Source: Amphiscolops sp. MND2022 (taxonomy: Eukaryota). From it: a DNA stretch of 64,000 nt. Below are positions 9,853 to 48,899 of the stretch, in pieces; the stretch's first letter is position 1; each line of letters begins with the position of its first letter. The stretch is from assembly GCA_964187785.1 (NCBI GenBank), contig OZ076415.1:62186001-62250000 (forward strand), in the 5' to 3' direction. The translations under genes were made by a program, and so were the position numbers. The notes beneath the pieces are model-generated. The model ran no database searches. It was not told where the DNA came from and saw only the letters and a list, made by a program, of their open reading frames with translations.

Positions 9853-9854
9853 AA

Positions 9855-12248: not shown

Positions 12249-12438
12249 CTGCAATTCAACTCCCATGTTGGTTTGGGTATTTGCTAGTGAGGGACTTTGA
12301 TCAATTAAAGAAACAAAGATTATGATAAAAGTTTGTGCGTTCGAAAAGTTCCGGCAAAAGTCGCAGAACAGCTACTTTTAAGTTGTGGTGCCGTAAAATC
12401 AAGTACTGAAATTAGGTCGCATATACATGTGTCATACA

Positions 12439-16760: not shown

Positions 16761-16829
16761 TTCGAAACTGAGATTAATGGAAAACAATACTTCTGCTGAT
16801 TTGTTCACATCGATGTGTGATGAAATTAC

Positions 16830-18596: not shown

Positions 18597-18617
18597 CAGT
18601 CACAACTATTTTCTGCG

Positions 18618-21388: not shown

Positions 21389-21874
21389 AACAAGACGAGA
21401 ACGTCTAAAGTCGGCGCTATATCTAAGGCTCAAAAAGCGCAAAACATTTTTTTCGAAAAAAACTTGAAATTTTCGAAAAAAAAATTTTAAGGAAAATGTC
21501 GCACAGTGCAGAAAAAAATCAAAAGGGGGGACCCTTTAGCCTCGGACGATTTTGTAGATTACGTTAAAAAAGTACAAAATGAAAGGGGGGACCCTTTGGA
21601 GACAAAAAAATTTTCGAAAAAAAGTCGCACAGTGCCGAAAAAAAATCGAAAAAATAGAAAGGGGGGACTCTGTAGTCCCGTCCGGTTTTGTAGGTTACCT
21701 TGAAAAAGGTTTGCACTAAATTTGCCTTGGCCTCTTTGCCGGACTGGGCGCCTTGGGTGGTTTCAGGATTGTTTCTAAAAAATGGACCGATCAGTATGAG
21801 GCTGAAGAAAAAAAAGGTCACTGCTAGCAATAGTCGGGCATTTTTCCTTGAAAGGAAAACGCGCCGACTAAAAA
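21389..21874 (+). repeat. Non-autonomous repeat copy C
   Basis: AACAAGACGAGAACGTCTAAAGTCGGCGCTATATCTAAGGC...AAAGGGGGGACCCTTT units...GCGCCGACTAAAA; same family as A and B. Confidence 0.7.
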
Positions 21875-22329
21875 CTTTGGCTGTGAAATTTTCTCGAATT
21901 GTTTTTGTTAGAGTCGTTGTTTTCATTTGATTAGAATTATTTAATGGTCAACTTATTTATTCAATAGCCTATTTTAATCAATAGCCAACAGCAATGTATA
22001 CACAATATTCAGCCATAAGCCGCCGCTACCTCGGCGCTGTTTTTAGATTTCCTACAGATAAGATGTAACGATTTAACTTATGATGATTCAACTAAAATTG
22101 ATGGTCATGCTGCTAAAAGTAACAACCTAGAAACGATGGGGAGAGACCTTTATAATCAGACTTTCCGCTAAGTGTTCCAACAAAAAACACTCGAACGACA
22201 CGCTTACCACAATTTGCCAATCCTGCAGTTTCTAACTTTCACAGTTTCTGTTTCCGAAAAAAAGTCTTCGATTTCATTTCTCCCGGGATCTTTGAAATTG
22301 AAAGATTTTCGTTCCTGAACTTTTTCATC

Positions 22330-28700: not shown

Positions 28701-28849
28701 ATATGGCTAAAGGGATGCTCTCTCATAAGTTCAATACCTTTAATGAAAATGTACTTCCGTAGCATTAATACTTTTCATAAATAGGTTTTCATTGACTGCG
28801 CGAGCATTCAGGTCTCGAATCTAATTCTTGGTTGTTCGTAATTTTGTAG

Positions 28850-29996
28850 TGTCAGAACGTACGGACGTCTCAGAATTGTGTACGTCTCTGTAGTTCTCTT
28901 CCCTACTGTTTGACATTTTATCAGTAAGGGCTCTCACAATACTTGTTAGTTCGCTAATTTGTCGGTTCATTTCCATAAACCGTTGCTCAATTCTATGTTT
29001 TTCATGGTCGCGTTCAATCTCTCTCATACCATTCAACTCCTCATTTCCGTTAACATTTTCAGCAAAGTGATCGGCAACACTCATGTTGTCTTCATCTCCA
29101 GAGTACTCATTCGTTTCTTCTCGACTAAATCTGTTTTCTCTATTGAATCCTGATCGAGTATTAACCATTGTTTTAAAAGATACAAGTTGGTAAAATGTTT
29201 AAATTTGAATTGGTAAGTTTAATAAAATGAGCTAAGAGTTGTTAAAGTACGACTGTATTCCAAGGTGGTTAGTTCTACTGTCTGGTTTGTCCTAATTGTG
29301 GTAGCACCTTCAATCTCATAATTACTCGCTAATTGCACCTGAGTATTTGAGTCTCTTCTTGTTTGATTGTTTTAGTAGACCTGCCGTTAGCACCTTTGTA
29401 CGACTGGTCACTTCAGTCGTCACTAGTTACTATTTCGGTATTTCAACTCTAATGACACATTAGTATGCGTCGTTAATTTCACTACTTCACAGCACGAGTT
29501 AATGATTGAGGTTTTGCGTATAATTACTGCATTTGATTACTGGTAATACTTCTGTAATTAGCACTGAGTGTGGAATATGACTATCGTTTGGAGTCGTTTC
29601 TAGTGATTCTACAAGGTTTCACTGAAGGAATATTTTATGAATGATGCTAAATGAACTAAACGATGCTTTAGGGATGAATTGTTAAATGTTTAAATATGGC
29701 AAACTGCATGTATGTTTAAGTAAGAAAGGTACGACCAGATATGCCAGTCGTTTGTATAATTGCCCTAAAGGTTGCGTTAAAAAATATGTAAAGCGGAAAA
29801 TGCTTTTATGCATTTTACAGAACTCAAATTGCACTGGTAGTTTGTGGCATGAATGAAATTGGGATGACGACTTTGTAGTACGGTCGTCCATTATATGTAT
29901 TTACATGTATTCTAAACTGTTCATGATTTAGTGTTTTAGCTGATTGGGGAGGACTTCATCTCTCAGTCGTTGTATCTCATACCAACTGGTATAACA
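28850..29996 (-). repeat. 3' LTR (1147 bp)
   Basis: Aligns without gaps to 43215-44361 at offset 14365 (99.1% identity). Confidence 0.97.
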
Positions 29997-30010
29997 TTCC
30001 GCCTCTTTGA
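29997..30010 (-). promoter_or_regulatory. Polypurine tract
   Basis: Minus strand ...CAAAGAGGCGGAA directly precedes TGTTATACC of the 3' LTR. Confidence 0.8.
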
Positions 30011-30913
30011 AAAGAAATGAGAGCTGACGGGGGGGTGAAGTGGTGGGTAGCAGTAGGCGGGGTTGATCAAGCATTAGCTAAGTTACAGTTGTTTCGTAGG
30101 TGAAACTTTTCCTCACATGACGACTTCGGGTGGTAGTCGTCGATAAGTTGATGCAGCTATTGACCTACTGTCGAGTAATCGGAAGTAGAATCGGACTGTG
30201 ACGTCATGAGTATCTTCGTGTTGGGAAGTGAAAGTAATCAGTATTGAGTGGAATTCGGTATGCCACGTCATCCGGTCGTGCGCTTGATGAGAGTAATTCG
30301 TCGAGTTAAGTAAGTAGTGAAGGAGCGTTGGCCGCGGTAGTCGGCTCGTTCGCAGGAGAGTAAATACGTTTGATACAGAGAGTCGTGTATTCCGTTTTCC
30401 GTTTCCGTTACTCGTGCTTGAGTAAACAAATGGTCGCTGCAGTTGTTGTTGACTTCGAGCTCAATTGTCGTTAGCATCAGTGTTGATCAAACTTTTGTTA
30501 CTGGTCGTTGCTTGCTCAAATTCAAATTGGAATTCTTCGATTATTTTCCGGATATTGCTGTTCCCTGTTTATTTTGCTGCTTTGTTGTTCGAATTGCTTC
30601 GTTGATTAGCCTTACATCCTCTCATCACTTGTCCCTTTTGCGGTTGGGATCGAATATCTTCTAGTCTGATGCATTTTTTGTACGTGAAAGTAGGATAGGG
30701 AAAAAGAAACGACTGCTATGCTCGGAGGTAGATTTCTTCCGTTGATTTTTCTCTTGTTGTGATTTAAGTCAATCAGCATCACCTGTGGTGGTAACTTTTG
30801 AATACTGAAATACTAGTGATATTAGAGCATGTAGTTGATCAGGCCATATTCGATTTCACCAGAACTGATTTGTTGAGTCGTCTTCCACTCCTTATTCTAC
30901 TCTTTATCCCTGT

Positions 30914-33900
30914 ATGTCCGATCTTGGTGGTTCTTCCTTCGACCCTGATTTGTGGTCGCTTGTATCCCTCGCCGAGGAGATTTATCAGGAGATCGAAGAG
31001 ATGGCATCCGGAATAGATTCAACTTCCGAAGAGGCCTTAGCCGAAGGGGCTGCTACTGTACTGTCGCCCTGTTGCCAGTTTGCTGGGCGAGTGAGTTCCG
31101 CATCGCTGGGAGGGATGAGTGAGCTGCTTGAACTTGCTCTCTCCGAGGAATTCCGTAAGTACAAATCATTAGTTTTTCTTCTTCCGTAGTGGGTGGGGTC
31201 GTATGTGAGTGTTTGCAACACATACTTTGCGAGTCGTGAATTGTTTCTCGCCAATCATTTGCTCGAGGCTTTTCTATCTTTCTATGTTTTGTATTCTGCA
31301 TTGGTCGTCTAGACCCACTTGTCGATGTAGGACTGTGTTTTATCGTTGTGATGAGGGGGTGACTTCCTGCTTGTTTCTTAGGCAATGCTGAGATGCCGAG
31401 GTTACTCGAGTACGTCCGTGCCTTCCCACAGAGAGGAGGTCAAGCGAGTGTGTCCGCGCCAACTGTACTGAGCGATCAAGTGCACCAGTTAATGCAATCG
31501 CAGTTGGGTTAGTATTCTCGTGTTTGTTTCTTCTGGTTGCACACGCTTGTAAACTTCAAGTAACATGAGCGATCTCGGCTGCTGTAGTAACTTCAGTTCG
31601 ATAGGGAACTCTTTTTTTTTCAATCCGGGATAATCTAGAATGCTAGGTTGGTTTTCGTAGGTGCCGAAGACTGTGCTGTCTTGTCCTTGGACGATTTGCT
31701 GAGCCGGGTAGAGGCTCGCATGGACAAGAGCGTGAGAGAGCTGAGCAAGGCTATTCTCGAGTCGTCCTTGGGAGAGCTTGGCACTGTGGGGGCCTTGCGT
31801 GTGGAGGAGTTTTGGCAGACGTTCAGGGCTGCTCTTCAGGAGGTCGTTGCTAAGCGTCATGTGGATTCGGTTCCTCGAGTGTCGACGCCTTCTGCAGAAT
31901 TGCCGTCTTTGGAGCTGGCCAGTCATGGCACTGTCCCTGGATGCGGTGGTTCAGGAACTGGGTCATTCGTTCCAACTGTGTTCGGTGGTCCAGGATCAGT
32001 CGCTGCTCCTAGCGATCCTAGTGTTGGGACGTCTGTTGTTCCGAGACCTGGTAACTACTTTCAAGATCACATGTAATGTTATACTAATTGGGGGGTTAAT
32101 CTTAGTCTGATTAATTTTTTCTCGATGATTAGTTTATTTGGGGGTGGGTAATGTATTGGTGAAACGACCGTGTTTTCTGGTCATGGTAGTCAAGACTGGT
32201 GGTTGAACACGGGGGGGTGAAATTTCTCTTATTTATTTTTGTAGTGTGTTTATGTTTCGATTTTTCAGTGAGGAAGAAAAGGCTCAATACGCTGAAACCT
32301 TCCTATTTCGTTTCGAATGTAGTCGGACTGTTCGTTGGCTTCCCGCGTCACAAGCGCGTTATCGACGGGTTCGCGCGGTGCCTGATGTGTCGCGTCGATC
32401 TCAGTATAGCCGGACGAGGTCTCCAGAATCTCTGGGGACATTGGAAAGGTGCGGAGCATACGCGCTTAGAGCAGAAGTTCCGGATCATGACCCAACGCCC
32501 CTTACTTGACAAGTCATGTCGGCCAGTGTCCGCGGATGAGGACAAACGCATACGCCTGGAGAGGATGGTCGAGCCTCCAGTGTATTTGGAGTCTCCAATT
32601 AGTTTGTCCCTTGAGGAACGTGTTTCACTGGAGCGAGAAGTAGAAGAAGGTGCGCGGCCAGTTTTGTCGACAGCGAGTGCAGCTTATCTGTGGCTGTGTT
32701 TTTTCCTAAACTGTTTTGGTACTATCACTGGTTTCCAGTCGCTGATACGTCTGATGGATGGCTGGTCTGGCAGTATGAGCGGCGAGATGAACTTTGTGTC
32801 TCGGACTCTTTCTGTGCCCAAATGTCAGGTACCATAACGTTTTATGTGTGTTGTATTTACTTCTAGCTTTTTCACCGGGGGGGGGGGGTTACATGTTTTC
32901 CTTTTGTATGTTACATGTTGTTACTACTTATTTGTTGTGTGGTTGTTTTTCATGGTTTCTTTAGGTCGTTTTGTGTTGTTTAGAGCTTGCTGTTGTACGG
33001 GGTGTACCCTTACATTGTCGAAAAGATGGGCAATCTGTTGCAAACAGGCAGTCAAATAGGCTTGCGCGTCTATTTCGATGGCAATTTCTGGCGGGTTGAC
33101 TGCCATTTCGTCGACGACCTAGATGTGAAGTCTGTGACCTTAATAACTTGGCCTGTATGTGAGCAGTGGAAGGAAGAGCTAATCCGCCTGGCTATCACTA
33201 TTTTGTCGTGTCTGGAACCGTTACCTAGCTTGTGCAGTGTGGTCGTGGATACGCACCTCGCCGTTGGGCGGGCGTTGGCTCATTTTGGCCCTGGTGGCAA
33301 CTCCGTGGTCATGCGCGTTCATGATGTACAGTGGGTTCAGCGTGCTATTCGTCAGCAGTTTCGACAGCGGGTGGGCGGTCTGGACCCATACAATGTACTG
33401 GAGTTCTTAAAGTACCGCTTGTCGAGTGTTGTAAACGGTGCAGCTTTTGACAAGATGCCATTATTGCGTCAGGTACTTGCTTTTGCTTGTGTTACTACAT
33501 GTGTGTTTTTTGTGTTGAGTGGACTTTATTTAGTTTTTTTTTTGTTTTTTTTGTTTTACTTGTGATTGTCTTCTTGTCTAGGGCTGTGATGTTCAGTCTT
33601 TCTTTTGGCTTATGTTTGACTGAGTAACTATGGATTACGGGTGTTGTTTTTCGTTTTTGCAGTACGTGCGCAGTGACGACCTAACACTCCCTCAGTTGGC
33701 GGCTGTCTGTGGGGAACTTGTGGAGCGCTGGGACGATCTAGCTGTTTACTTCAGCAATGAAGGCAGTGGCTCTATGGTGGAGCTGAGATCTGTCCCAATC
33801 CTAAGCGTCGTGATTTTCAATGACCGATTGGCTAGACCGCAGATGGCCATGTTGAGGTGGTTGCTAGACGAAGGTTGGTAGTTTAATTTTGTGTTTTTTG

Positions 33901-35323
33901 AGGTTTTCGTCTGTTTTTTTTTGTTCGTTAAGTGTAGATGACTGTGGGTCGAAGTGTTCGTTTAGTCGTTTGCTTACGACAGTTGTATTTGCTATTCTCA
34001 GTGCGGGGTAGGGTCTATTTTTGTATTGAATGCATTATACTGTTAATGTGTGTTTTTGTTTTAGTCGTAGCGTCTCTTCCTCGGGGGTGTACGTACAGTC
34101 GAGACCGAGATCTGAGCTTCGAAGTGGAGTTTGTGTCCTTCCTTCGACGACTGAGGTGTATGGTCCAGGATGCGGACAAGATCCCAGCTGCTTATGACCA
34201 TGAACGTCTTCTCAGCACTAGGCCTGTTGAATTAGGAACTTTGTCTCAAGAACGTTACCAAGCGCTGTTTGTGCAGTATTTTCGCTTCGACGTGCGTGAT
34301 CAACAACGTGTTTTCTACCGCGAGATCCAGTTGTTTTTGGCAAAACTCTGTGAAGACCTAGTAGCCGAGTATCAAACTGATGCTGAAGGACGATTGAATG
34401 TAACTGCTTTCGCTCCCGAGGCAATGTTCTATCGATCAAAAGACCGTGTGGTTGACGCACTTATGGATTGCTGTTTGTTGCTAACGCGCTTGGGATTTCT
34501 CGGTGATGTTCAAGGCGCCAAAATCGTCCAGCAGTACAACGATGTGTATAGCTATTTTATGCATCGATGGCGAAGCCAATCGTCTTCTGGTCCTGTGGTT
34601 GATGACGTGATAAACCTATGGCGGGCCTATCCCTTCTGGTCGCGTTGCAGTGACTTGCTGTGTGTCTTCAAAGTTGTGGTCTGCTGTACTACCCGAAGTC
34701 AGTATGTGGCTGATTTCTTGGATGTTGGGTCCACTGCTCTTTCTCAAGGACAGTTGTTGTCCAGCATGAATCTGGTGAGGAGTTGGACAAGCTCTGGCGT
34801 TATTGGTGGTGCTCGCAAACTCATGGCTGGTTTCCTTCGTCATTGCGAGACGACTGATATGCATGTCTCTCGGCTGATGGATCCCGAAAGAGGAAGACCG
34901 TGGGATCAACTGTTGAAAGTTGGGGTCGAAGACGTGCTGGCTCGGTGTTACCGAGTGTTGAACGAAGGAACTGTTAGACCTGCAGGAATTTCAGTTGACG
35001 AGTATCGGTCTGCAGTTTGCGAACAGTTAAAGAGCGGTTCGGATGATGCGATTGGTCAGCTTAGAGATCGTTCGCGGAATTCTGCCTCTAAAGGGTCTGC
35101 CTTACAATTTTCTGTCTGTGATGATGAACCACTAATTCGTCACGTTTCCAGTAGCAAGCGACCTACGTCTCAGAAGGACGTTAGTTTGCCGTCGACATCC
35201 CGTTGTGTTAAAGGAAAAAAGAAGTCTGCTGGTGTTAAGCCTAAGACAGTTGTGCCGCCTAAGAAGTCCTACAAGCGGAAGTTAACGAAAGTCCTCATGA
35301 GTGAGTCGTCTGAGGAATACTAG
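30914..35323 (+). CDS. Seven-exon antisense cargo gene, 1091 aa: BED-type zinc finger + hAT-transposase-like body lacking most catalytic motifs
   Basis: Exons 30914-31154, 31382-31507, 31661-32050, 32269-32828, 32984-33472, 33663-33873, 34065-35323 total 3276 nt = 1092 codons with no internal stop. Six GT-AG introns of 153-227 nt (donors GTAAGT, GTTAGT, GTAACT, GTACCA, GTACTT, GTTGGT; T-rich acceptors). CLMC...HWKGAEH finger at 32379-32458. hAT-like blocks RVYFDGNFWRVDCHF, SVVVDT, LVERWDDLAVYF, FYREIQLFLAKL, DLLCVFKVVV. Confidence 0.85.
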
Positions 35324-35335
35324 TCAGTTGGAGGA

Positions 35336-35341
35336 AATAAA
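35336..35341 (+). terminator. Polyadenylation signal of the cargo gene
   Basis: AATAAA 12 nt after the TAG stop, followed by T/GT-rich sequence. Confidence 0.6.
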
Positions 35342-37038
35342 AACATTTTGTCATTGCTTGTTGAAGAAAAACAGTTTCAGCTGTTTACATGATTTGTACT
35401 TGAAAAACTTTACTTACAACTTAGGTTTCACTTTTCTCTTGTGGGCATTTTTACATGTCTTTTTGTGTTACTACTTTGCATCCTGTATATTTTCATTGTA
35501 TGTTGTTGTTTTATTGCTGATGCTGGGCGATTTGTTGGATTTGCTTTTTTACTGTGCTGTTCTTTGCATGTTTTTGCATGGTTGTTTTGAGCTTTTGACA
35601 ATTGTTACATGTTTTTAGTTACTTAGATCGGTACATCTTGTGTGTATCTTCCTTCTTGCGGGCACGGATAGTATTTTCAGTGTGTCCAGAAACAGAAAAT
35701 ACAGTCATTGACTTAAAACGTTCTTTTGTCCTAGAGTAGAGCTCTGCAGGTAGTGTGGTTTTCAAACATATCGGCTATCATTTTTCTTCGGTGTAGTTGG
35801 TGACTGCTCGAGCATGGTAACGAGACGCTTGTACCATGGCTCTTTTGGCCTAAGCACTGCATTGCAAAGTGGGTGACTGGGCAGCTTGCTCATTCCAATG
35901 CTTGAACGTCCAAGGAGTGCACCCTTGGTTTAAGACTTAACTTATTCAGCGTGTGATTTTGTTTACATGTGTTTTTTTTCCTCTAATGCCTAAGTTGCAT
36001 GTTTTTACTGTTCTTATTACATTACATGAAATTTTTCGTTTGTAATGACGTCATCATCGTTGGTGTGTGTCTTGTGACGTCACCACTCGTGATGTGTGTC
36101 ATTTTTGTTGAGACTTTTGGAAATGTTACGTTATGGTAATGACTATGGCTGGCGGGCTGTAGTTGACTATTGTTTTTAGTCGTGTTCGCGCTGAAAATTA
36201 TTTTCGAGGGTAAGGCCACGAACTCCTTAAATTTTTGTCAAGGCGAGGCAAAGCCTACGCATTTTTGGTTGGTTTAAGGGGTCGGGCGTTCATGGTTTTA
36301 TTGTTGTTGGCCGTCCGCTTTTTTTGTGTTTTTCTTTAGCAATGTTCGGTTTATTGTAAGGTGAATTGCCGTCGCAACCACCCATTCAAAACTAACACTG
36401 AATCCAGTTGCTAAAGAGCAACCTTCATCTGTATGTTGACGACCAACCACACAAGCACGTTTTTTGACGACGCACCCACACAGCCAGCTCTATGATTTCA
36501 AGGTTAAACGAGAGGGGCTTAGTTGCGTTGTCTTAACGTTGGCGGGGCAGCAGATCGTTCCTGTTAGTTTGTTGTGCGTGTTGGGAACGTTATTTGCGTT
36601 CACGTTTCATTAGTTGGATTGGAATAGTTCCAGATTCAAGATATTTTACTAGTACTGTGGCTATGGTAATTTTGGCGTGAATTGCATAAATTATCTCGCG
36701 TTAATTCGTGTGGTACATGTATTTCCGCATCGCACTTTTTATGACGACTAGTGTTCGCCGTCGTTGCGTTTCCGTCCGTTCATTCTTAATGGCAGTTAGC
36801 GTTCAATGATAGTTTAGCTCGCATCGTGTTGACTGGAAGTAATGATTGTTTGATTAGTTGTTTTCTAGATTGAGAGTGTTTGGTGAGTACTGTAATTGTA
36901 AAACAATTACCTTCAAGTTTTATAAGTGTGACTATCATGACTGCTATTAGCAGTCGTTGGTGGTGTTTTTCAAGATTACTAAGCTACGAAAAGGGAAGTT
37001 GTATTTCTAGTGTGATTTAGGAGACTTATGAACGACTT

Positions 37039-40000
37039 TCAGTGTAAGTTGTTGTTTTGTAGAAATTTTTGTAAGACAGGTTTTACTTGAAGTTCATGCA
37101 CTAAGAAATCTCGGTACGTTTTCGGTGCAGGTTGTGGCCTTAGATTGTACCGGGTGGTGTTGTTGCGTGACGTAACCGGCGCTTCGTCGTTATTGTTTGG
37201 CAGCTCGTGTTCGTGTGTTGCAGATTGATCAGGTTCATCCTGATATTCGTCGTCTACTCGCGCGCTAACGACTGAGTCGTCAGTTGGTGGCACGAAAATT
37301 TGGGGAGGATGTTCAGTTATTGGTTGTGTTTGTGATCGGTCTGACGACCTTTGAGCATAGTCGTAGTAGATAATACCGTGTTCGGTATCGATTTCTTCAG
37401 GTAGTGGCAATGCGGGTGTTTGTTCAAAATGTATGGTCTGAGGTAAGTGGTCGTTGAACATGTCTTGGTCATCGAAAGCTTCAGGGTCGGCAAAGAAGAG
37501 ATTTGGATCTTCTTCGATGTCGGGTATAGGTGCGTTCCGGATGAAAGGTCGTAAACGCATTCTGTGAACGCACTGTGTGCGGGAAGTGCCGATTTTCCTC
37601 ACTATGTAGTTGAAATTAGTTAAAACTTTTACTACTTTGAAAGGGCCTTCCCATTTAAAGTGGTGGAATGCGATTTTGTCGGACTGGTCGGTGATTTTCG
37701 GGTTGAGGAGGAAGACGAAGTCATTAACTTTCAACGGTGATGCTTGAGCCTTACGGTCGTAGTACCTTTTGTACTTGTGGTAAGCTTGGAGTATGTTATC
37801 GTTTACTTGTTTGTACTTTTCGTTTACTTGGTCAATCAACTTCGTCAAATCAGTGTCTTGTGTGCGGCATTGTAGGGGGTTGCTGAACTTAAGGTCTAAG
37901 GCGTTGAACGGGACTCTACCATGAAACACTTCGCTCGGGGTACACTTAAGTGATTGGTGGTAGGTCGTGTTATGAGCCATAACTGCTAAGTTAACGTACT
38001 TGTCCCATTGGGGAGAGTCAGCTGCAACATTGATTTTCAGTATCTGTTTTAGCTTTTGGTGGGAACGTTCGACCATTCCTATGGTTTGAGCATGTTTTAC
38101 AGTTGCGTGTTCGATTTGGATTCCGGCAGTTTTCATTAGTTCGGTCATGATGTTGGCTGTGAATGCTGTTCCTTTGTCAGTGATGATGGTCTTGGGTACG
38201 TAGGCGTGACGAGTGAAGATTTGTAACAGTGCATTGACTACTGATTTCGTGTCTGGTTTGCGGATCGGGATAGCGAACAGATAGCGCGAGAAATAATCGC
38301 ACGCCGTCAGAATGTGCGTATATCCGTTTGAGTAGGGTAGTTCACCTACCAGGTCGATTTCAAGTATATCTTCTGGACCGTTGCAAGGGTCATAGATTTT
38401 TTCGAGAGGTGGGGTTAGACGTTTTGGGTTGACAGGTTTAGCTTTTAGGCAGTCTGTACAGTTGCTAACAAAGTTTGAGACGTGTTCACTGAGGTTAGGT
38501 ATATAATAACGCTTGCGGAGTTCTACCAACATTTTGGTTGCCCCAGGGTGTCCCTGCATGGGATCGCCATGCATCGTCCTGATTATGGGCAACGTAGTTT
38601 CTGGAGGTACTACAATTTGTTTAAATAGAACTCTACCAGTGTTATCGAAAAACTTCCTGTACAGTACGTTGTTGACTACTTCAAGGCGTTTCTTGTTTTT
38701 TACAAGTTTTTGAAAGAAAGAGCTAGCAAAGTTTACGTGGTTAGGGAGGGGTTCGTCGTTAACTAGGACTCGGACCATTTTTTGGATGTCCTGGTTACTT
38801 AGTTGGTCCTGGAATATTTGAGAATTCCCTTGCGGGCATACCTGGTTTACCATGTTGGGGTGTTGTTTTCTGGTAAACTTCGTCAGTATGATTGAGGGGG
38901 TTTCGCCTGCTAGCACTGGCTCGAGGTGACGACTGATGATCTGGATCATCTTGGTTCGGTCATCGTCATGTTGATCCTGGGTGTTCGCGAGCAGGTGCAG
39001 TAGGGACTGCATTTGGTTGAGTGCGTCATTGGTGTCGTTTGTTTCAGGGTGATTCTGCTCCTGGGACTCATTTGGCTTGGCGTCTTGTGGTTGATCAGGG
39101 TCGTAGTCTTCTTCATCATCATCTTGTTTCGGGGTTTTTGCAGCTAAGTCGATTTCGATGTAGTGGACAGGGATCTGGTCGTTGAGTTTCAAGTGTATTC
39201 TGTCCTCAGGGTTGATGTCGAGCCTAGACAGGTAGTCGGCGGCTGGATTTTCTACTCCTGGCACGTGGGCTAATACGAAATCGAATTGCAGAGCCTGGTC
39301 GCAATGGTTCCACAATTTCGGTGGAATTCGCTTTGATTGGAAAAAGCGGGTTAGCGCTTTGTTGTCCGTCATCACGATTGTGGGTTTCTTGACTCCCCAT
39401 AGTATGTGGGCGAATTCATCGAAGGCGAAGTGCATGGCTAAGAATTCCTTCGCGTATATAGTCAATGACATTTGACCTTCGGTGAATCGTTGGGATCCAA
39501 AGGCGACGGGTGCATACGTCTTCTTCTTCTCGTCGTTGTTCTCGGTGTAATCTTCAATGAGTAGCACGTATCCTGCTGCGTGCTCGCTGGCATCGCACAT
39601 GATGACGAGTTGTTTGTCGGGCAGTGGCAATCTGAGTGACAGTTTTGCTGCTCGTGCTAAATTTTCATTTATGTCAAAGATCGCATCCTTGTGTACTTGT
39701 GTCATTTCGAATTTCACATCTTTTTGTAGAAGTTTGTACAGTGGGACTAGCTTTTCGGCCAATTTCGGGATGTATTGTCTATAAAATTGGACGAAACCGA
39801 TGTAACGTTGCAGTGATTTTACTGATGTTGGAAGTTTGAGTTTTTTGAGGAAGTCATCAATTCGTTTTTCGAGAGGTGCAACGCCTTTAGTTGTTATGCT
39901 ACGTCCCAGAAATTCGATCTTCGGGTTTCCGAAAGCGCACTTTGACATCGAGAGTTTCAGCCCTGCTTTCTGGATCTGCTGGAACACTGCTTCGATGTTG

Positions 40001-41985
40001 GCAACCAGTTCGTCCACGTTGTGTGCAGCTACCCCAATATCGTCGACGTATTGTGCACATTTATCTGCTTTCACTAGTGCATCAAGATACTCGCGGATTG
40101 TGCTGTTAAATGCTGAAAGTGATCTATTCAATCCTTGAGCGAGACGGAGGTATGCGAAGGTTCTGCTGCCAAAATTAAATGCGAGGAGCTGGATTGACTG
40201 TTCATCGGCCATCTGAAGGCAGTGGTAAGCTTGTGAACAGTCGAGCTTACAGAAGTACTTCTTGCCAGCCATGTGTTGAGCGGCGTCTGCTATCGTCGTG
40301 ACCGGGTGATTGTGCTGGTTGTAGTCGTTCTTGAGGAGGTGGTTGATGCGTCTCAAGTCGACTAGGATTCGCAATTTTCCATTGGGCTTCCGCTGGGCTA
40401 ATATCGGGGACGAGTATTTGCTGTATGGAAGTGTGGTGATGATGCCGTATTCTTGCATCAGAGCCAATTCGACGAGGAGGTCGTCCTTCAGGTTAGTCGG
40501 GGTCGGTAGGCTCTGTGCGTACACCGGGTCGTCATGTTTGGGTGTCAGTTTAATTTTGAAATCGGTGTTTATGCCTATGTCGAGGCGGTGACGAGCAAAA
40601 ATCGTGTGGTATTTGACCAATAAGGCTTCGATCCGCTGTTGTTCTTGTTCGGTGAGGATTGAGTCGTCCCAGCTGAAGTTCTTCAGGAACGTCCTTCGTT
40701 GGTCGTCGTCACGTGTAGGGTCAAGTTTCTCAGCTTCACGGAGTTGGATAATCTCATCGTAAATACGGCGTTCGATTTTGTTGAGTTTTTCAGGATCGTC
40801 GCATGTTTCGGGTGATGGGTACCATCTTTTGTCTTTACTTGCGTCTGGTTCTTGAAACAGCTGATTTATGACATTGGTGGCTTCATCTGGGAATTTTGTG
40901 ATGAGTGTTAGTTGTTCACTTGTCATTGGTTGAACATTTTTTGCTTGGTTTGGAGTTAAGATGCGGAAGACTGCCACTGTTGTGTTTTGGGGAATCGTTA
41001 TTGAATGGTCCAAATAGTTGGTGATTTGGACGTGTGTCTGCTGGTCGTTGATCTCGGACATCGATGGGGACACTAGAAGTTCCGTCTTGCGTTCGAAAGC
41101 TGGGAATGCCTCTACCGTGCCTGTCACTTGGCCGATGTCTTTTTCTGATGTCACCGGAATGAAGACTTGTTGTCGTGGTTGTATTGTCGTCTTCTGTGAT
41201 GCTCTGAGTTCCAACATCTGCAATTTGAATTTCCCATTTTGTGGTCTCAACTGAAGTGTAATTTCGGGAAATCTAACGATGTTATTTGCAAGGTCCAGGG
41301 TTACGGAATATTTCTTGAAAAATGACATTCCAATCAATATGTTTCCCATTGTCGGTAAGATCATGAAAGTCTCTTCAAAGACTTTTCCTCCGATAAAGAA
41401 CCGAAGGAGGACTTGCTTCCGGACTGGAACTATACTTCCGTTAGCAATTTGCACTTTGAAGTCCGGAGCAGGGTACTCTTCAAGTTGGGCCGCTGGGTGG
41501 GCTTGTAATATTCGGCGTAGTTCGTTTTCGGACATTGCGCTTTGGATAGCCCCTGTGTCTAGCAGTCCTTGATTTTCATATGCTCTGAAATGGAGGGGGA
41601 CGTAGAGCATTTTGTTTCTTTTGTCTAGCTGGAGTGTTGCAGTGAGAGGCTTGATGTTTGTCGTCTTCGGGTTATTTGACGACTTCACTTGTGGTGGGTG
41701 TTTCGAGTCTCGTTTTGCTGGTCGGGTAGTCATTTCGCTAGTTCGTGAGTCCCTTGGTTCACAGTCCTTTGTTGTACATGAAGGGTCGTCTCCAACTAAC
41801 GGGAGAATGTGGTAGTTGTTATGTGACACTTTATGTACATAGTATTTCTTGGGTAGTTTAGTCTGGGGGACAGAATGCTGCCGACATTCTGGCGTGTGAG
41901 TCTTCGAGTCGTAGTAGTGGTTGATTTGTGGTTGTTTGCGCGCACTGTTGGTCTGGGTGTGTTGGGGATGACGTGGCTTTACAAG
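37039..41985 (-). CDS. pol: Gypsy pol (protease, RT, RNase H, integrase), intact; probably entered by -1 frameshift
   Basis: Frame is open from 41985 to the stop at 37039. PR LLDTGA; RT KLDCSQAYH, YVDD; RH CDAS; IN HGDPMQGH...CTDC, EIDLVG, ITDKG, ERSH, WEGPF. Confidence 0.96.
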   Translation of the reverse strand, partial: LVKPRHPQHTQTNSARKQPQINHYYDSKTHTPECRQHSVPQTKLPKKYYVHKVSHNNYHILPLVGDDPSCTTKDCEPRDSRTSEMTTRPAKRDSKHPPQVKSSNNPKTTNIKPLTATLQLDKRNKMLYVPLHFRAYENQGLLDTGAIQSAMSENELRRILQAHPAAQLEEYPAPDFKVQIANGSIVPVRKQVLLRFFIGGKVFEETFMILPTMGNILIGMSFFKKYSVTLDLANNIVRFPEITLQLRPQNGKFKLQMLELRASQKTTIQPRQQVFIPVTSEKDIGQVTGTVEAFPAFERKTELLVSPSMSEINDQQTHVQITNYLDHSITIPQNTTVAVFRILTPNQAKNVQPMTSEQLTLITKFPDEATNVINQLFQEPDASKDKRWYPSPETCDDPEKLNKIERRIYDEIIQLREAEKLDPTRDDDQRRTFLKNFSWDDSILTEQEQQRIEALLVKYHTIFARHRLDIGINTDFKIKLTPKHDDPVYAQSLPTPTNLKDDLLVELALMQEYGIITTLPYSKYSSPILAQRKPNGKLRILVDLRRINHLLKNDYNQHNHPVTTIADAAQHMAGKKYFCKLDCSQAYHCLQMADEQSIQLLAFNFGSRTFAYLRLAQGLNRSLSAFNSTIREYLDALVKADKCAQYVDDIGVAAHNVDELVANIEAVFQQIQKAGLKLSMSKCAFGNPKIEFLGRSITTKGVAPLEKRIDDFLKKLKLPTSVKSLQRYIGFVQFYRQYIPKLAEKLVPLYKLLQKDVKFEMTQVHKDAIFDINENLARAAKLSLRLPLPDKQLVIMCDASEHAAGYVLLIEDYTENNDEKKKTYAPVAFGSQRFTEGQMSLTIYAKEFLAMHFAFDEFAHILWGVKKPTIVMTDNKALTRFFQSKRIPPKLWNHCDQALQFDFVLAHVPGVENPAADYLSRLDINPEDRIHLKLNDQIPVHYIEIDLAAKTPKQDDDEEDYDPDQPQDAKPNESQEQNHPETNDTNDALNQMQSLLHLLANTQDQHDDDRTKMIQIISRHLEPVLAGETPSIILTKFTRKQHPNMVNQVCPQGNSQIFQDQLSNQDIQKMVRVLVNDEPLPNHVNFASSFFQKLVKNKKRLEVVNNVLYRKFFDNTGRVLFKQIVVPPETTLPIIRTMHGDPMQGHPGATKMLVELRKRYYIPNLSEHVSNFVSNCTDCLKAKPVNPKRLTPPLEKIYDPCNGPEDILEIDLVGELPYSNGYTHILTACDYFSRYLFAIPIRKPDTKSVVNALLQIFTRHAYVPKTIITDKGTAFTANIMTELMKTAGIQIEHATVKHAQTIGMVERSHQKLKQILKINVAADSPQWDKYVNLAVMAHNTTYHQSLKCTPSEVFHGRVPFNALDLKFSNPLQCRTQDTDLTKLIDQVNEKYKQVNDNILQAYHKYKRYYDRKAQASPLKVNDFVFLLNPKITDQSDKIAFHHFKWEGPFKVVKVLTNFNYIVRKIGTSRTQCVHRMRLRPFIRNAPIPDIEEDPNLFFADPEAFDDQDMFNDHLPQTIHFEQTPALPLPEEIDTEHGIIYYDYAQRSSDRSQTQPITEHPPQIFVPPTDDSVVSARVDDEYQDEPDQSATHEHELPNNNDEAPVTSRNNTTRYNLRPQPAPKTYRDFLVHELQVKPVLQKFLQNNNLH

Positions 41986-41991
41986 TTTTTT
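41985..41991 (-). promoter_or_regulatory. -1 ribosomal frameshift heptamer A AAA AAC
   Basis: gag frame reads TCA AAA AAC TTG TAA; a -1 shift enters the pol frame, which has no stop between 41985 and 41829. Confidence 0.75.
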
Positions 41992-43200
41992 GAATTCTGG
42001 GTGAATTCTTCATTGTAATCCTCGTCGTAGCAATCGTTCTGGCCTTCTGTCTGTGTTGTTTCACTTGTTGCCTGGGCTACGTAGTAGGGTTGCTGTCGTG
42101 TGTTCTGCGATTGGCGGAGGTCTCGTCTGAATTCGCGGTTCTCCGTTGTTGACTGCTTCTGGTAAGGTACATTCTGGTAGGCTGATGCACCTGGCACGCG
42201 GTCTCGGCAATCTCGTGCAGAGTGTCCGACCTTGCCGCAGATTTGACACACCAATTTTGGGTTATATCGGGTTTTGTCAGTCTGGGGTTGTTGGTTGTTG
42301 CTATCTTGTTGAGGGCGTTGATAGGTTTTGGTGTGGATTCCGTTTGATTCATCCCGGAGGCGTTTTCGGCAGTCAATCCACTTGTGACCAACTATGTTGC
42401 AATATCTGCAATTGCCTTCGAATTTTCGTTTGACTTCTTTATTTGCATTTGGTTTCGCCGCGTTGTTGCTGGTGGAAGTCGTCTGTTGGTTTGTTTATTG
42501 TTTGGCAGGGTAATTCTGAATGTTGTTCAGAGGCTGCATTCCCGCGTTGTTCGGTATCAGTTGTGCGTACTGGCAACGTCTCTGAACGAAGGTCTTGATT
42601 TCTTCGCTGGTAGCGTCGTGCTTTCCTGCCATCGCTAATTCATTTTGTATCTGGATTGGCAATTTGGCAAATAAGAAGGTTTCTGCTATGTCGTTTGCTT
42701 TTTCACCGTACGCCTGTTTTGCCAGCTTTTTAAACTTCGTCAGGAAGTCGGCAAATGACTCCGTTGTCGGGTCGTACCTCATTTGATCGAACTTGTACTT
42801 CGATACTTCTTTGAGGTCTTCTTTGGCGTATTCCTTGCTGAATGCCTGGAGTATGTCGGTGAGTGTTGTTTCGGTTGTTATTTTCAAAGTTTGCCAAAAT
42901 TCAATGGCGTCGTCCCTGAGTAAGCTTTGGAAGTAATTTAGCTTCTGTTCTTCCGTCAATTTGTGCATGTGGGGCCGGAGATGGTTTTTGAGTAAGTGTT
43001 CAAACTCGTTATATTTCTCTCGGTTCCCACGGAATAGAGGGACTTGTGTTTGGAGTTTTTTTTGGCTGGATCACTCCATCAACCATTGTTGTTCTGAGGT
43101 GCTGTATTTCGGACATTACGTCTCCCATCTGTGGGTCGAGCAGTGAAGGTGGAGTTCTTCTTGGCGGTTGGGTATTGGGTGTCGGCGGTGGGTTCGCCAA

Positions 43201-43214
43201 GACTCCTGTCACCA
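43201..43214 (-). promoter_or_regulatory. Primer-binding site TGGTGACAGGAGTC (tRNA-Leu-like), inside the gag ORF
   Basis: Starts at the base after the LTR-terminal CA; one mismatch from the tRNA-Leu-type PBS TGGTGTCAGGAGT. Confidence 0.7.
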
Positions 43215-44361
43215 TGTCAGAACGTACGGACGTCTCAGAATTGTGTACGTCTCTGTAGTTCTCTTCCCTACTGTTTGACATTTTATCAGTAAGGGCTCTC
43301 ACAATACTTGTTAGTTCGCTAATTTGTCGGTTCATTTCCATAAACCGTTGCTCAATTCTATGTTTTTCATGGTCGCGTTCAATCTCTCTCATACCATTCA
43401 AGTCCTCATTTCCGTTAACATTTTCAGCAAAGTGATCGGCAACACTCATGTTGTCTTCATCTCCAAAGTACTCATTCGTTTCTTCTCGACTAAATCTGTT
43501 TTCTCTATTGAATCCTGATCGAGTATTAACCATTGTTTTAAAAGATACAAGTTGGTAAGATGTTTAAATTTGAATTGGTAAGTTTAATAAAATGAGCTAA
43601 GATTTGTTAAAGTACGACTGTATTCCAAGGTGGTTAGTTCTACTGTCTGGTTTGTCCTAATTGTGGTAGCACCTTCAATCTCATAATTACTCGCTAATTG
43701 CACCTGAGTATTTGAGTCTCTTCTTGTTTGATTGTTTTAGTAGACCTGCCGTTAGCACCTTTGTACGACTGGTCACTTCAGTCGTCACTAGTTACTATTT
43801 CGGTATTTCAACTCTAATGACACATTAGTATGCGTCGTTAATTTCACTACTTCACAGCACGTGTTAATGATTGAGGTTTTGAGTATAATTACTGCATTTG
43901 ATTACTGGTAATACTTCTGTAATTAGCACTGAGTGTGGAATATGACTATCGTTTGGAGTCGTTTCTAGTGATTCTACAAGGTTTCACTGAATGAATATTT
44001 TATGAATGATGCTAAATGAACTAAACGATGCTTTAGGGATGAATTGTTAAATGTTTAAATATGGCAAACTGCATGTATGTTTAAGTAAGAAAGGTACGAC
44101 CAGATATGCCAGTCGTTTGTATAATTGCCCTAAAGGTTGCGTTAAAAAATATGTAAAGCGGAAAATGCTTTTATGCATTTTACAGAACTCAAATTGCACT
44201 GGTAGTTTGTGGCATGAATGAAATTGGGATGACGACTTTGTAGTACGGTCGTCCATTATATGTATTTACATGTATTCTAAACTGTTTATGATTTAGTGTT
44301 TTATCTGATTGGGGAGGACTTCATCTCTCAGTCGTTGTATCTCATACCAACTGGTATGACA
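43215..44361 (-). repeat. 5' LTR (1147 bp)
   Basis: Minus strand runs TGTCATACC...TCTGACA, immediately followed by a TGG PBS. Confidence 0.97.
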
Positions 44362-44917
44362 TGTAGAGTTGATGATCTAACAGTCAATGACTTTATGTTC
44401 GTAGTCTAGTCGTCGCTGATGCATAGCGAGTTTCAATTTATGGCAGGCAGACTCTTTTCGCTACAGATGATTAGTGGAGTTAGGTAAGGTGTGAAGTATT
44501 TTTTGAAGTCAACAATTTCTTATCTTGAATCATCCGGTGAGTTGTAGAGAGCATAGAGAACAAATTCCAATTTGTTGAGATTTACGAAACGTGCTACACA
44601 GCAATCAAGTTACTGCAGTTGTTTGGAAACAATGGTGTTTTTTCACGACCAACAAAGAACCTCTGTGACCTCATACTCTTCGCTTGTCTGCATACTTGAT
44701 AGAATTTATTCTCGTTAAATTGTTCTTCAGAGTCTTCCACACTCGCATCCAGCAACGTCTCAAGACAGCAAAAGGCACTATAATGACTCAAAAGTGCCGC
44801 ATTTAGGAACTTGTATCATCGTTCTGTTTTCCAAAGACTTCGAGTGTTCAGTAGGAGCATGATTATGTAAAATAGTTAGTGAATTTTGTAAAACTGTAGG
44901 ACTTTCTTCCTATATTT

Positions 44918-45983
44918 AAAAGTTGAGAGTCCCGTATTCATAGGTCTCTCCCAACACGCTGTCATCCGTTGTACGTAAACATTTTATGCGTTTTGTCTTA
45001 ACAGCAAATAAGAAAAGGAAGTTCTCTTTTTGAGTTCAGTTCACTTTTTCAAAATTTTTTGCAAGTAGTGGGCATATTTCGTATTTTATGTTGTGAAGGA
45101 AAACAGGACAGTTTTTGATTTCTGTATTGTATGTCTCTGACGAATATTCCAAGTCTCCTCAACACCTTGACGTTAGTATCACTGCTAACGTTGTTAAGTA
45201 TCTCCTTCACCAATTGTTGGGACAAGTATTCGTATTCCTTTTTTTCCAAGAAGCTCAGGGATCTCAAACTATCAGACATGTTAAGATATCATTGTTCAAT
45301 ATTTGCTTCTACTCTGGTGTCAGCGAAGCTCTCCTTATGAAAATGTGTCAACGTTTTTTACCAATAATTTGCGGGATTTCGTTTGACTTTTTTTCAGGAC
45401 ACTTTCATATATTCGTCAAATTTTTGTAATTCAATGAAGTTAGTTTCACCTGCAGTGTGCAGGTTAAAAAAGTTGAGAGTCCCGTATTCATACGTCACTC
45501 CCAACACGCTGTCATCCTTTGTACGTAAACTTTTTTTGCGTTTCGTCTCAACAGCAAATAAGAAAAAGATGTTCTCTTTTTGAGTTCGGTTCACTTTTTC
45601 AAAACTTTTTGCAAGTAGTGGGCATGCTTCGTAATTTGTGTTGTGAAGGAAAACAGGACAGTTTTTGATTTCTGTATGTCTCTGACGAATATTCCAAGTC
45701 TCCTCAACACCTTGACGTTAGTGTCACCGCTAACGTTGTTAAGTATCTCGTTCACCAACTGTTGGGACAAGTATTCGTATTCCTGTTTTTCCAAGAAGCT
45801 CAGGGATCTCAAACTATCAGACATGTTAAGATATCATTGTTCAATATTTGCTTCGTTTGCTATGAAAATGTGTCAACGTTTTTCACCAATAATTTGTGGG
45901 GTTTCGTTTGACTTTTTTTACAGGACACTTTCATATATTTGTCAACTTTTTGTCATTCAATGAAGTTAGTTTCACCTGCAGTG
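44918..45983. repeat. Tandem duplication of a ~540-bp unit (44918-45457, 45468-45983)
   Basis: Both units begin AAAAGTTGAGAGTCCCGTATTCATA and end TGAAGTTAGTTTCACCTGCAGTG, and give near-duplicate minus-strand ORFs MSDSLRSLSFLEK... Confidence 0.9.
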
Positions 45984-48899
45984 AGCCGAATTTGCCTACC
46001 AATTTATTGGTTTCAACTTGTTTTTTCTAGCTTTGTTTGTGATTTGCTTGTTAATGATGTTTCCCGTTGGTTGTTTTCATAACAGGCGTTGCTAAGTAAC
46101 ATGCGACTGAGCCCCAGTTTCTTATTGTCCTTTTTTTGCTACATTTGATAGCCAGAAAACGAAGGTTGAAGATGTATGGAGCAGTTACATCTAACACAGT
46201 GATCGGGTTTTTCATCTTGGACGAATTTTCGTTTGCCTTTCTTTTAGGTTGTTTTTAACAAATTTTGTTCTTTTTCAAGCTGTTTGACTGAGTCACTGAG
46301 TTGACGAAACAGATTACAAGAAAAGCCAAAATTCCAAAGCAATCGAATGACTAGTTAGCCAGCTTGTTCCTGCTGCTCCGCGTTTCTTGGAAGCTGGCTT
46401 CGAATTCTTTTTGATGAAGTTTCTTTGTTGAAATTTGCATTTTCTGATGATACTCAATGTTTTCAATTCAAAAGTTTTCCCTGATGAACAGCCTAAAGTT
46501 TTGATCTTGTCGCTTTTTCTCTGACAAACGTTCCGGCGTGACGTAGAGATGAAGTTTTTTAGTCCTCCAGAAGCGGGTAGTTATTTGGGGAACCTTTCCG
46601 GGGACAGTAGACCGCACGTTAACAGTCTCTTGAATTTATTATTATTCGTCAGTTCAATTCCCTGCAGTTGGTTTTGAAGTCGGAATTTGGGTGTGCTGGA
46701 GTTGTTCAAAAAAGCGTCAACGGATACAAACGAAGGACAGTGGTATCTACGGACTCCTACTCCGATGAGAAGGTCGAAGACTTCTTGAATTCGGTTTGGC
46801 AAGAAAATGGAATGAATGATCCTTTAATGAATCTTTTAAAAACTGTCACTCAGCCGTCGGAGTAGTATCTCCTATAGGTTTTGTGGACCCATCCGTACCG
46901 AACTGTTTTTCTCATTCTTTACCGGAAATGCTCACAAGTTAGCTAATTTGAAATGGACTCTCGTGAAATATATATATGTGAAAACTGTAAATTTTTCTTG
47001 CAACTTCTTTTTGAATGCAGCCTTCAAAACAAAACAGGTTTTTGTCACCTGAAAAACGTCGATGTTTCAAAATTGAAAAGTTTTAACTTGAAAATACTGA
47101 AGAGGGAAGCTTCAGATTTTGAATTGGACTGAGTTCATAATAAATCAATTTAAAGCAACATAGAAAATGGAAAAGCAACGGTGAAGATTTTCTCGCAAAG
47201 TGGGGTCATCAGAAATTACTCATGTTATTTTCTGGGATTACTGCACCAGTGTTGAAACTAAGGCCAGGGACTGCTTTCATTTCTCCTCTGAGTGTTCTCT
47301 TTTCGTGTATCAATTTCTCCAAACAGAGATGTTAGAAAGTTGCTGAATTGATCCTCATGAATATGACCACAACAGCTGTCCTCGATTTCAAACTTCAGCC
47401 GAAACTATTCAATGAATTGAGGTTGAAGTGTGGTAGGACCTTGAGCACAAAGTCACTGCTGTAGAAAAATTGAGGTACATAAGGAATTGTTCTCTAGAAG
47501 GCATTTCCGCAAAACTTCTCGTAATTCCTGAAAACGATACACATCCTAATGGTAAATGATCACTTGCCTCAAAGTCATTTGGCCTGAGGTCACATGGCGT
47601 AATGCATTTGCCAACTGGGCTCAATTTACTTAAGCTAAACGACTTTGGCTGGAAATCACTATGTTAGGAAACTGTGGCAGAGTTTGTCGAAATTGTTCTT
47701 ATAACGTTGTCAGCTTCGTTCACATACCCCTCGTGCCCTAAATGCAGGAGCGAAGCGAAGCGGAGCGACGTGCCATAAGACCTTGCCCCAATGTTGCTAC
47801 TTGGCGAAAGGAGCGAAGCGACTGAACCATATAACAATTGAGCTGTACATTTCGTAACGTTTTCGTTTGCTGTTGTTGTTCTTTCTTTAACATTTCGTTG
47901 AAGACTGAATTCCGTTTTGGTCTTGATAGGTTGTTTTTAGCCATTGCTTGCGTTAGAAAGTCTTCGCCTAAATTTGTGGTCGTTTGGCTCAAAAGTTTCA
48001 AGCAAAATGACAAAACTAAAAAATTTGACCGAGTGACTTGTGACCACGACGTACCATATGGCCATGCCACGACGTTGTTACTTGGCGAAAAGAGCGAAGC
48101 GACCGAGTCATACAACAAAATTGCTAAGATCTTTTATATTCAAATCTCCTTTCTCAAACATTACCGCAAAAATTCAGTTCAGTTTTGGTCTTTAATAAGT
48201 TGATCTTTTTGCCAATACATGAATTAGATTGAACTCGGCTCAGTTTTGTAGTTAGTTGGCCTAATAACACTATGTCAAATGACTCAAGGTAAGAATTATG
48301 CCAAATGAATTTAACCAAGTGACTTGTAACAATCCTCATTACATGTCGTCATCATGTGCAGGGATTACGAATAAGTTTTTGCAATAATTGAAGAAACGTT
48401 AATTGATTTATTTTTCAGTCTGTTTTCAGTTAATGAATTGATACGCACCGTAAAATGGCCTGATTGGTTCTTGATTTTCAAGGTCCAAAACGTTAAAATG
48501 CTTCCAGGGTATTTGCTAAAATAATTTTCACTGCACTGGGAGAAACGTAGGGAAAGTCAGTGCAAAACCGAACAGATGAAAAAAATGAACCAGTTGGTCA
48601 TCTTTGTACTACAAATTGAAAAGTCTAACACCTAGTATATTAGCTTGAAAAAGTGAGCACGCAACTTTGTTCAACCCATCGTTCGGTATCATCAGCCAAA
48701 AACTGGAAAACAGTTTTGGTTGTTTGTGATAACTAAGTTGGTAAAGCTTTCAGTGAACCGAACAAACCAATGATTGGATGTGCCTCCCACCATTCATCAC
48801 CAGCAGTGAATGATTACATAGGTGAGAAAAAGGAATCATTCAAAAATCAACACCTTTATGGCAAAACTTTGGGGTCTCAATTTACCTTACAGCCAACAA

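What the first reader, a model, noticed from the sequence alone, without database searches (positions are those of the whole stretch)
28850..44361. Unusually large (15.5 kb), recently inserted Gypsy element with ~7 kb extra between pol and the 3' LTR
Seen: perfect TGTAG TSD, 1147-bp LTRs with only 10 differences, PBS, PPT and intact pol. The TSD and PPT show the cargo region was inside the element when it last retrotransposed. I found no TIRs or TSD bounding the cargo as a later nested insertion. No env-like ORF lies on the sense strand in this interval.
Basis: seen in the sequence. Interest (0 to 1): 0.75.

Follow-up and report, generated by a model that had tools for sequence, protein, structure and literature searches.

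The report
Retrotransposon carrying an antisense transposase-derived gene
A recently inserted 15.5-kb copy-and-paste jumping gene carries, on its opposite strand, a predicted seven-exon gene that its close relatives appear to share and that likely descends from a disabled cut-and-paste transposon enzyme, which would mean one kind of mobile element has adopted a gene of another kind, likely as its own DNA-binding regulator.

Summary
The element is real: 15,512 bp, 1,147-bp LTRs with 10 differences, TGTAG target duplication, open pol (PR-RT-RH-IN), and 7,042 bp between pol and the 3' LTR. That interval is not inert cargo. The strand opposite to pol holds a predicted 7-exon gene with six GT-AG introns of 153-227 bp, 1,091 codons without internal stop, and AATAAA 13 nt past the stop. 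Homologues at 46-96% identity keep the exon edges, and variants in other copies are mostly synonymous (13 of 22). By contig-length matching, close pol relatives share contigs with this gene (29 of 41, against 4 of 160 for more distant pol). The protein has a C2H2 finger, a predicted RNase H-like domain (Hermes hAT transposase fills 5 of Foldseek's top 7 rows, E about 1e-3) and a helical C-terminal half. No TIRs were found and no conserved catalytic glutamate sits where expected. It is likely a disabled hAT transposase kept as an antisense accessory gene, with introns that survive reverse transcription because they face backwards. The hAT origin is moderately supported; splicing, expression and function were not shown. 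gag in this copy is interrupted twice. Plant Retand antisense ORFs are the nearest precedent.

The parts
28845..28849 (.). Target-site duplication, left copy (TGTAG)
28850..29996 (-). 3' LTR, 1,147 bp
   Evidence: 10 differences from the 5' LTR
29997..30008 (-). Polypurine tract (11 of 12 purines on the sense strand)
30914..31154 (+). Antisense gene, predicted exon 1 from the ATG (acidic N-terminus); an upstream non-coding exon is not excluded
   Evidence: 5 of 8 listed variants synonymous; no homologue search for this exon
31382..31507 (+). Antisense gene, predicted exon 2
   Evidence: both flanking introns recovered by frame-blind splice scoring
31661..32050 (+). Antisense gene, predicted exon 3
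32269..32828 (+). Antisense gene, predicted exon 4: basic cluster (predicted nuclear signal) and zinc finger; acceptor may alternatively be 32245
32379..32459 (+). C-x2-C-x16-H-x5-H zinc finger (model residues 290-316), BED/Spin-doc-like
   Evidence: sequence; Atlas lead 0.90 to zf-C2H2_12 and zf-BED clusters
32984..33472 (+). Antisense gene, predicted exon 5: RNase H-like alpha/beta domain
   Evidence: 21 homologue clusters; edges conserved; fold
33663..33873 (+). Antisense gene, predicted exon 6
34065..35323 (+). Antisense gene, predicted exon 7 to the stop: helical region and basic tail
   Evidence: 131 homologue clusters; acceptor pattern conserved; model pLDDT 72.8
35336..35341 (+). AATAAA, predicted polyadenylation signal of the antisense gene; the only one on this strand in 35201-37100
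35342..37038 (.). Non-coding spacer between the antisense gene and the pol stop
   Evidence: no ORF of 80 aa or more beyond a T-rich 105-codon stretch; no Rfam match
37039..42009 (-). pol ORF, 1,656 codons: protease, RT, RNase H, integrase
41979..42494 (-). gag, last piece (CCHC knuckle); overlaps the start of the pol frame
42495..43070 (-). gag, middle piece (Retrotrans_gag, DUF1759), ending in an in-frame stop
43009..43533 (-). gag, first piece; its ATG lies about 320 nt inside the 5' LTR
   Evidence: assignment to gag is by position, no gag Pfam hit for this piece
43202..43214 (-). Primer-binding-site candidate starting TGG directly after the 5' LTR; cognate tRNA not tested
43215..44361 (-). 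5' LTR, 1,147 bp
44362..44366 (.). Target-site duplication, right copy (TGTAG)

Best explanation
This is a recently inserted Ty3/Gypsy LTR retrotransposon whose extra 7 kb holds, on the opposite strand, a predicted seven-exon gene for a 1,091-residue protein that likely descends from a hAT-type DNA transposase, has likely lost its cutting activity, and likely acts as a nuclear DNA-binding regulator that helps the element. Inferred: (1) an intron-containing hAT element once landed backwards between pol and the polypurine tract of an ancestor and lost its inverted repeats; (2) its introns survive each RNA cycle because the genomic RNA runs through them backwards and is not spliced there; (3) a separate antisense, spliced, polyadenylated mRNA is made from the 3' end of the element; (4) the protein enters the nucleus, binds DNA through its zinc finger and transposase scaffold, most likely on copies of the element, and with its acidic N-terminus promotes their transcription or shields them from silencing.
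For: Splice model: 6 GT-AG introns (GC 0.34-0.42, T-rich) between exons of GC 0.49-0.57, 1,091 codons with no internal stop, AATAAA after the stop. Frame-blind scoring picks the model pair in 4 of 6 introns and an open pair in 5 of 6, where only 15-38% of candidate pairs are open; strong acceptors number 10 of 334 AG on this strand against 1 of 356 on the sense strand. Exon 5 ends at the same place in homologues: 74 of 74 that matched the motif (83 examined) continue with Val (GTN), and in the 10 homologues at 80% identity or less, identity falls from 19-28 of the last 30 exon residues to about a fifth to a half in the intron read-through. At the exon-7 acceptor 11 of 12 aligned homologues (15 tried) have Val across the junction. 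Variants in run X1: 13 synonymous of 22 coding, expected 24-30%, p 0.0004-0.004. Co-location 29 of 41 against 4 of 160, Fisher p 3e-21. Exon-5 model has helix, three strands, helix, strand, helix, strand, helix; Hermes transposase takes Foldseek ranks 2, 3, 4, 6, 7 and 13, probability 0.91-1.00, TM 0.37-0.41. Zinc-finger lead to Spin-doc/GTF2IRD2 and BED clusters. Domain order finger, RNase H-like, helical region is consistent with the Hermes layout (N-terminal BED, catalytic and insertion domains named in passages of PMC10368747; exact order recalled). The column where the catalytic Glu is expected (placement from a recalled motif) is Glu in only 10 of 52 rows. Basic clusters at residues 254 and 1055-1078; acidic N-terminus; no strongly hydrophobic segment, maximum KD19 1.78.
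Confidence: 0.55

Rival explanations
1. The antisense gene is real and transposase-derived but works at integration rather than transcription: it would tether or protect the integration complex and steer insertions.
For: DNA-binding finger, predicted nuclear signals and a transposase-like scaffold; retained in close relatives.
Against: The 5-bp duplication is ordinary for a Gypsy integrase; sister pol clusters with hundreds of members do not co-locate with the listed exon-5 carriers, so insertion does not seem to need this version of the gene; no target preference could be tested.
Confidence: 0.15
2. The gene restrains transposition: a dominant-negative or repressor form that limits its own element or rival hAT transposons and so benefits the host and the element.
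For: Same anatomy as the best explanation; antisense transcription can itself be inhibitory (PMC7264820, main text read).
Against: Acidic N-terminus fits activation better (inference); carriers are recent and numerous (exon-5 clusters of 31, 16, 12, 12, 10 members).
Confidence: 0.12
3. The protein is still an active nuclease or recombinase with a rewired acidic triad.
For: Conserved acidic columns in exon 5 (D32 15 of 19, D89 all acidic, D114 17 of 18) and exon 7 (D219 44 of 48); RNase H-like fold.
Against: Expected Glu column is variable (10 of 52); no inverted repeats for it to act on; the exon-5 alignment holds only close homologues, so conservation there is weak evidence.
Confidence: 0.08
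4. The gene is real but not of hAT origin: a captured host or viral gene with a generic RNase H/actin-like fold and a zinc finger.
For: No Pfam or PDB sequence match; VIA-align prefers kinases and release factors.
Against: Hermes is the most repeated top Foldseek hit with the highest TM-scores; finger type and domain order fit hAT; all homologues looked up are unnamed and many multi-copy.
Confidence: 0.07
5. The region is a dead nested transposon or an assembly chimera carried passively.
For: gag of this copy is interrupted twice; no expression data.
Against: Seven exons open in register, synonymous excess, conserved splice edges down to 46% identity, and co-occurrence with pol on many contigs; run X1 holds cargo pieces, 22 of 30 laid contigs at 95% identity or more.
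Confidence: 0.03

Closest known systems
Plant Retand/Tat Gypsy elements (Retand, Grande, RIRE2) with antisense extra ORFs
   Same: Long pol-to-3'-LTR region (2.9-6.6 kb) with antisense ORFs kept in most copies; predicted or shown nuclear, DNA-binding products; function open (PMC11963269 passages and Discussion; PMC7264820 main text).
   Different: No TRP28 (PF04195) match here. Those papers say the plant ORFs lack similarity to other transposable elements and treat them as ORFs (the word 'intron' does not occur in PMC11963269); here there is one long six-intron gene with a likely hAT origin, in what looks like an animal genome.
hAT transposases (Hermes; BED or Spin-doc-type finger)
   Same: N-terminal C2H2 finger, RNase H-like domain with Hermes among the top Foldseek hits, long helical region after it.
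   Different: No TIRs or 8-bp duplication, no Pfam hAT domain detected, expected catalytic Glu not conserved, long acidic N-terminal and basic C-terminal extensions, and it sits inside an LTR element.
Bdelloid rotifer LTR elements with captured ORF3 (env, GDSL, DEDDy)
   Same: Animal Gypsy-like elements with family-specific non-env genes after pol (PMC5408684, passages).
   Different: [quoted passage not shown]
Planarian Burro giant Gypsy elements
   Same: Oversized invertebrate Gypsy elements with accessory coding content (PMC6431247, passages).
   Different: Extra domains are mostly inside a sense polyprotein and include env homology; 'antisense' has 0 hits in that review.
Retroviral antisense genes such as HTLV-1 HBZ
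   Same: Antisense, 3'-located, nuclear regulatory protein (as summarised in PMC11963269 passages).
   Different: Unrelated fold and origin; the gene here is far longer and does not overlap sense coding sequence.

Membership tests
Ty3/Gypsy LTR retrotransposon | Paired LTRs with TG...CA ends and a 4-6 bp target duplication | tested here: met
Ty3/Gypsy LTR retrotransposon | pol order protease, RT, RNase H, integrase | tested here: met
Ty3/Gypsy LTR retrotransposon | gag with capsid-like region and CCHC knuckle upstream of pol | tested here: met
   present but in three pieces
Ty3/Gypsy LTR retrotransposon | PBS and PPT next to the LTRs | tested here: met
   by position and composition; pairing to a host tRNA not tested
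env-bearing Gypsy (errantivirus-like) | Sense env ORF after pol | tested here: not met
   longest sense stop-free stretch 153 codons
hAT DNA transposon (nested element) | Terminal inverted repeats with 8-bp target duplication (PMC10368747 passages) | tested here: not met
   best of 63 candidates 8 of 14 matches; no long terminal pair
hAT transposase protein family | N-terminal BED-type zinc finger | tested here: inconclusive
   C2H2 motif present; Atlas 0.90 lead only; no Pfam hit
hAT transposase protein family | RNase H-like catalytic-domain fold | tested here: met
   the fold is shared with many non-transposases
hAT transposase protein family | Helical insertion domain and C-terminal dimerisation region | tested here: inconclusive
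   exon-7 model is all-helical but matches nothing; no Dimer_Tnp_hAT hit in 66 rows
hAT transposase protein family | Conserved DDE triad | tested here: inconclusive
   one invariant acidic column after strand 4; expected Glu column Glu in 10 of 52; placement rests on a recalled motif, and other acidic columns are conserved
Retand-type element with antisense extra ORF | [quoted passage not shown] | tested here: met
Retand-type element with antisense extra ORF | TRP28 (PF04195) domain | tested here: not met
   no hit
Retand-type element with antisense extra ORF | RT falls in the plant Tat/Retand lineage | not tested
   tree held only unnamed relatives, no reference lineages

The most novel reading that the evidence does not exclude
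A retrotransposon has domesticated a DNA transposon: an animal Gypsy family turned an intron-containing hAT transposase gene into its own antisense accessory gene, a catalytically dead DNA-binding factor that activates the element or shields it from host silencing. The gene family has radiated to 20-96% identity, diverges faster than RT, and may be exchanged among LTR lineages as a module in an arms race with the host.
Probability: 0.35. Interest if true: 0.87.

Novelty: new variant of a known kind. Interest (0 to 1): 0.74.

Why it matters
The origin and function of antisense extra ORFs in LTR retrotransposons are stated open questions, and nested-transposon origin was judged unsupported for lack of similarity (PMC7264820, PMC11963269). 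Here such a gene appears to have a traceable source, a DNA transposase, and a testable biochemistry (zinc finger, nuclear signals, many natural variants). It would also be a natural case of a multi-intron gene propagating through an RNA intermediate because it faces backwards, and of transposase domestication by another mobile element rather than by the host. Practically, ORF-based annotation misses it: the database holds only single-exon fragments without names.

Full report
Observation. The element spans 28850-44361 (15,512 bp) with its sense on the minus strand. The LTRs are 1,147 bp with 10 substitutions and TGTAG flanks both ends; K2P distance is 0.0088, so the insertion is recent, though no rate is available for a date. 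PBS-like and PPT sequences abut the LTRs. pol is one open frame of 1,656 codons with protease, RT, RNase H and integrase. gag starts inside the 5' LTR and reads in three pieces, with a frame change near 43,060 and an in-frame stop at 42495-42497; whether this is decay, recoding or assembly error is open. The 7,042 bp between pol and the 3' LTR have no sense stretch over 153 codons and no TIR-plus-duplication pair.

What the extra region is. On the plus strand GC-rich blocks alternate with T-rich blocks. Joining them at GT and AG gives seven exons (30914-31154, 31382-31507, 31661-32050, 32269-32828, 32984-33472, 33663-33873, 34065-35323), six introns of 153-227 bp, 1,091 codons with no internal stop and AATAAA at 35336. 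I first chose these junctions by eye with frames in view, so I ran controls. Scoring donor-acceptor pairs within 45 nt of the model sites without regard to frame returned the model pair for 4 of 6 introns and an open pair for 5 of 6, while 6 of 40 to 18 of 48 candidate pairs are open; intron 4 failed and intron 3 chose an in-frame acceptor 24 nt upstream. Five of six acceptors rank in the top 10 of 411 AGs and one ranks 51st. Strong acceptors number 10 of 334 on this strand, 1 of 356 on the sense strand, and 4 of 284 on the same strand over pol, so base skew explains part of the asymmetry.

Homologues support the exons independently. Exon 7 has 131 clusters at E up to 0.001, 22 at 1e-30; exon 5 has 21 clusters at 46-96% identity among 93 candidates. 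The 10 exon-7 clusters looked up are unnamed and range from 1 to 80 members. Exon-5 conservation stops at the predicted donor: 74 of 74 motif-matching proteins (83 examined) continue with Val, the GTN codon; of 12 homologues aligned, the 10 at 80% identity or less drop from 19-28 of 30 to 2-9 matches in 9-28 read-through columns, while the two at 95-96% stay alike. Upstream of exon 5, 3 of 4 read-through homologues have Gln, the CAG codon. At the exon-7 acceptor 11 of 12 aligned homologues (15 tried) have Val across the junction. Contigs of run X1 list 31 differences in this region (40 of 92 shown in all); 13 of the 22 in exons are synonymous against 24-30% expected, p 0.0004-0.004. These are single contigs at depth 2. 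No RNA-level test succeeded, and X1 contigs cross two splice sites unspliced, as DNA would. Exons 1-3 and 6 were not searched for homologues.

Is it part of the family? Using contig length as an identifier, 29 of 41 distinct contigs listed for the three pol clusters at 96-99% RT identity also carry a listed exon-5 homologue, against 4 of 160 for eleven clusters at 58-91% (Fisher p 3e-21). Only up to 15 members per cluster were listed, and this shows same contig, not same element. The cargo-linked RTs fall in one shallow group of seven rows, support 93/88 (30 rows, 29 chosen from 120 hits, no reference lineages). RT at 96-99% goes with exon 5 at 75-96%, so the antisense gene diverges faster than RT or is exchanged. 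Sister clusters at 86-91% show 1 match in 59 contigs: they may lack the gene or carry versions not listed. Where the 20-60% homologues lie is unknown.

Mechanism. Inferred: an intron-bearing hAT element entered an ancestor backwards between pol and the PPT, lost its ends, and was kept by selection. Introns facing backwards are not removed from the genomic RNA (established principle of intron-marked retrotransposition reporters, recalled), which explains how a six-intron gene can ride an RNA intermediate. A separate antisense mRNA would give a nuclear DNA-binding protein; activation or anti-silencing of the element is my preferred role, ahead of integration targeting and repression. None of these roles was tested.

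Comparison and novelty. Antisense extra ORFs between pol and the 3' LTR are known in plant Retand, Grande and RIRE2 and in fungal Boty; their origin and function are called unknown, and a nested-transposon origin unsupported (PMC7264820, parts 1-2 of 3 covering the main text; PMC11963269, passages and Discussion). Animal precedents seen are captured ORF3s in rotifers (PMC5408684, passages) and Burro polyproteins (PMC6431247, passages); orchid elements captured a demethylase domain (PMC9289625, passages). Five searches aimed at an antisense, spliced or hAT-derived gene inside an LTR element listed no paper describing this arrangement; most listings were seen only as titles and abstract starts, the library is partial, repeat databases were not searched and no supplements were read, so a prior annotation could exist. 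The host was not determined: a rhodopsin-family GPCR fragment in the window points to an animal, and an acoel flatworm is my recalled guess, untested; passages of PMC9911081 say LTR elements dominate acoel genomes and mention no such gene.

Verdict. Observation confirmed; interpretation extended. A new variant of a known kind, interest 0.74: gene model about 0.9, family component about 0.9, hAT origin about 0.75, the whole regulatory account 0.55.

Noticed in passing
window 526-3456 +: Open 976-codon LINE-type ORF with endonuclease and RT domains.
   Followed up: partly
window 4768-10792: Older LTR-like direct repeat pair (about 930 bp, 91.5%) enclosing an inverted repeat at 9131-9689 (88%) and two ORFs (6993-7616, 8160-8933, minus) with no Pfam hit; possibly a non-autonomous LTR element.
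   Followed up: partly
window 16689-17417 -: Rhodopsin-family 7tm_1 fragment (E 8e-7, just under the curated cut-off); 11901-12371 may be a related piece, no Pfam hit.
   Followed up: partly
window 18216-21875: Cluster of dispersed direct and inverted repeats, 70-96% alike, perhaps small non-autonomous elements.
   Followed up: no
window 44918-45986: Tandem duplication of about 550 bp at 90% identity just right of the element.
   Followed up: no
window 61895-63406 +: Fragments with Pol beta-barrel then integrase and SH3-like domains, Copia-like order.
   Followed up: partly
window 36340 +: The strongest acceptor-like site of the cargo on the plus strand lies downstream of the antisense gene's polyA signal and is not assigned to any exon.
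   Followed up: no
window 43533 - and 28821-29198 -: The gag reading frame begins about 320 nt inside the LTR, so the 3' LTR repeats an open gag start.
   Followed up: no
proteins P0233, P0237: Some pol relatives at 59% RT identity carry PF00692 (dUTPase, name recalled), absent from this element.
   Followed up: no
proteins P0004 cluster and P0195 cluster: Two contig-length matches between an 80-member distant cargo cluster (41% to exon 7) and a pol cluster at 78%: a weak hint that distant cargo versions ride other LTR families.
   Followed up: partly
window 33113-33143 +: Five differences in X1 contigs all fall on first codon positions of exon 5 (four non-synonymous, one silent), unlike the third-position pattern elsewhere.
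   Followed up: no
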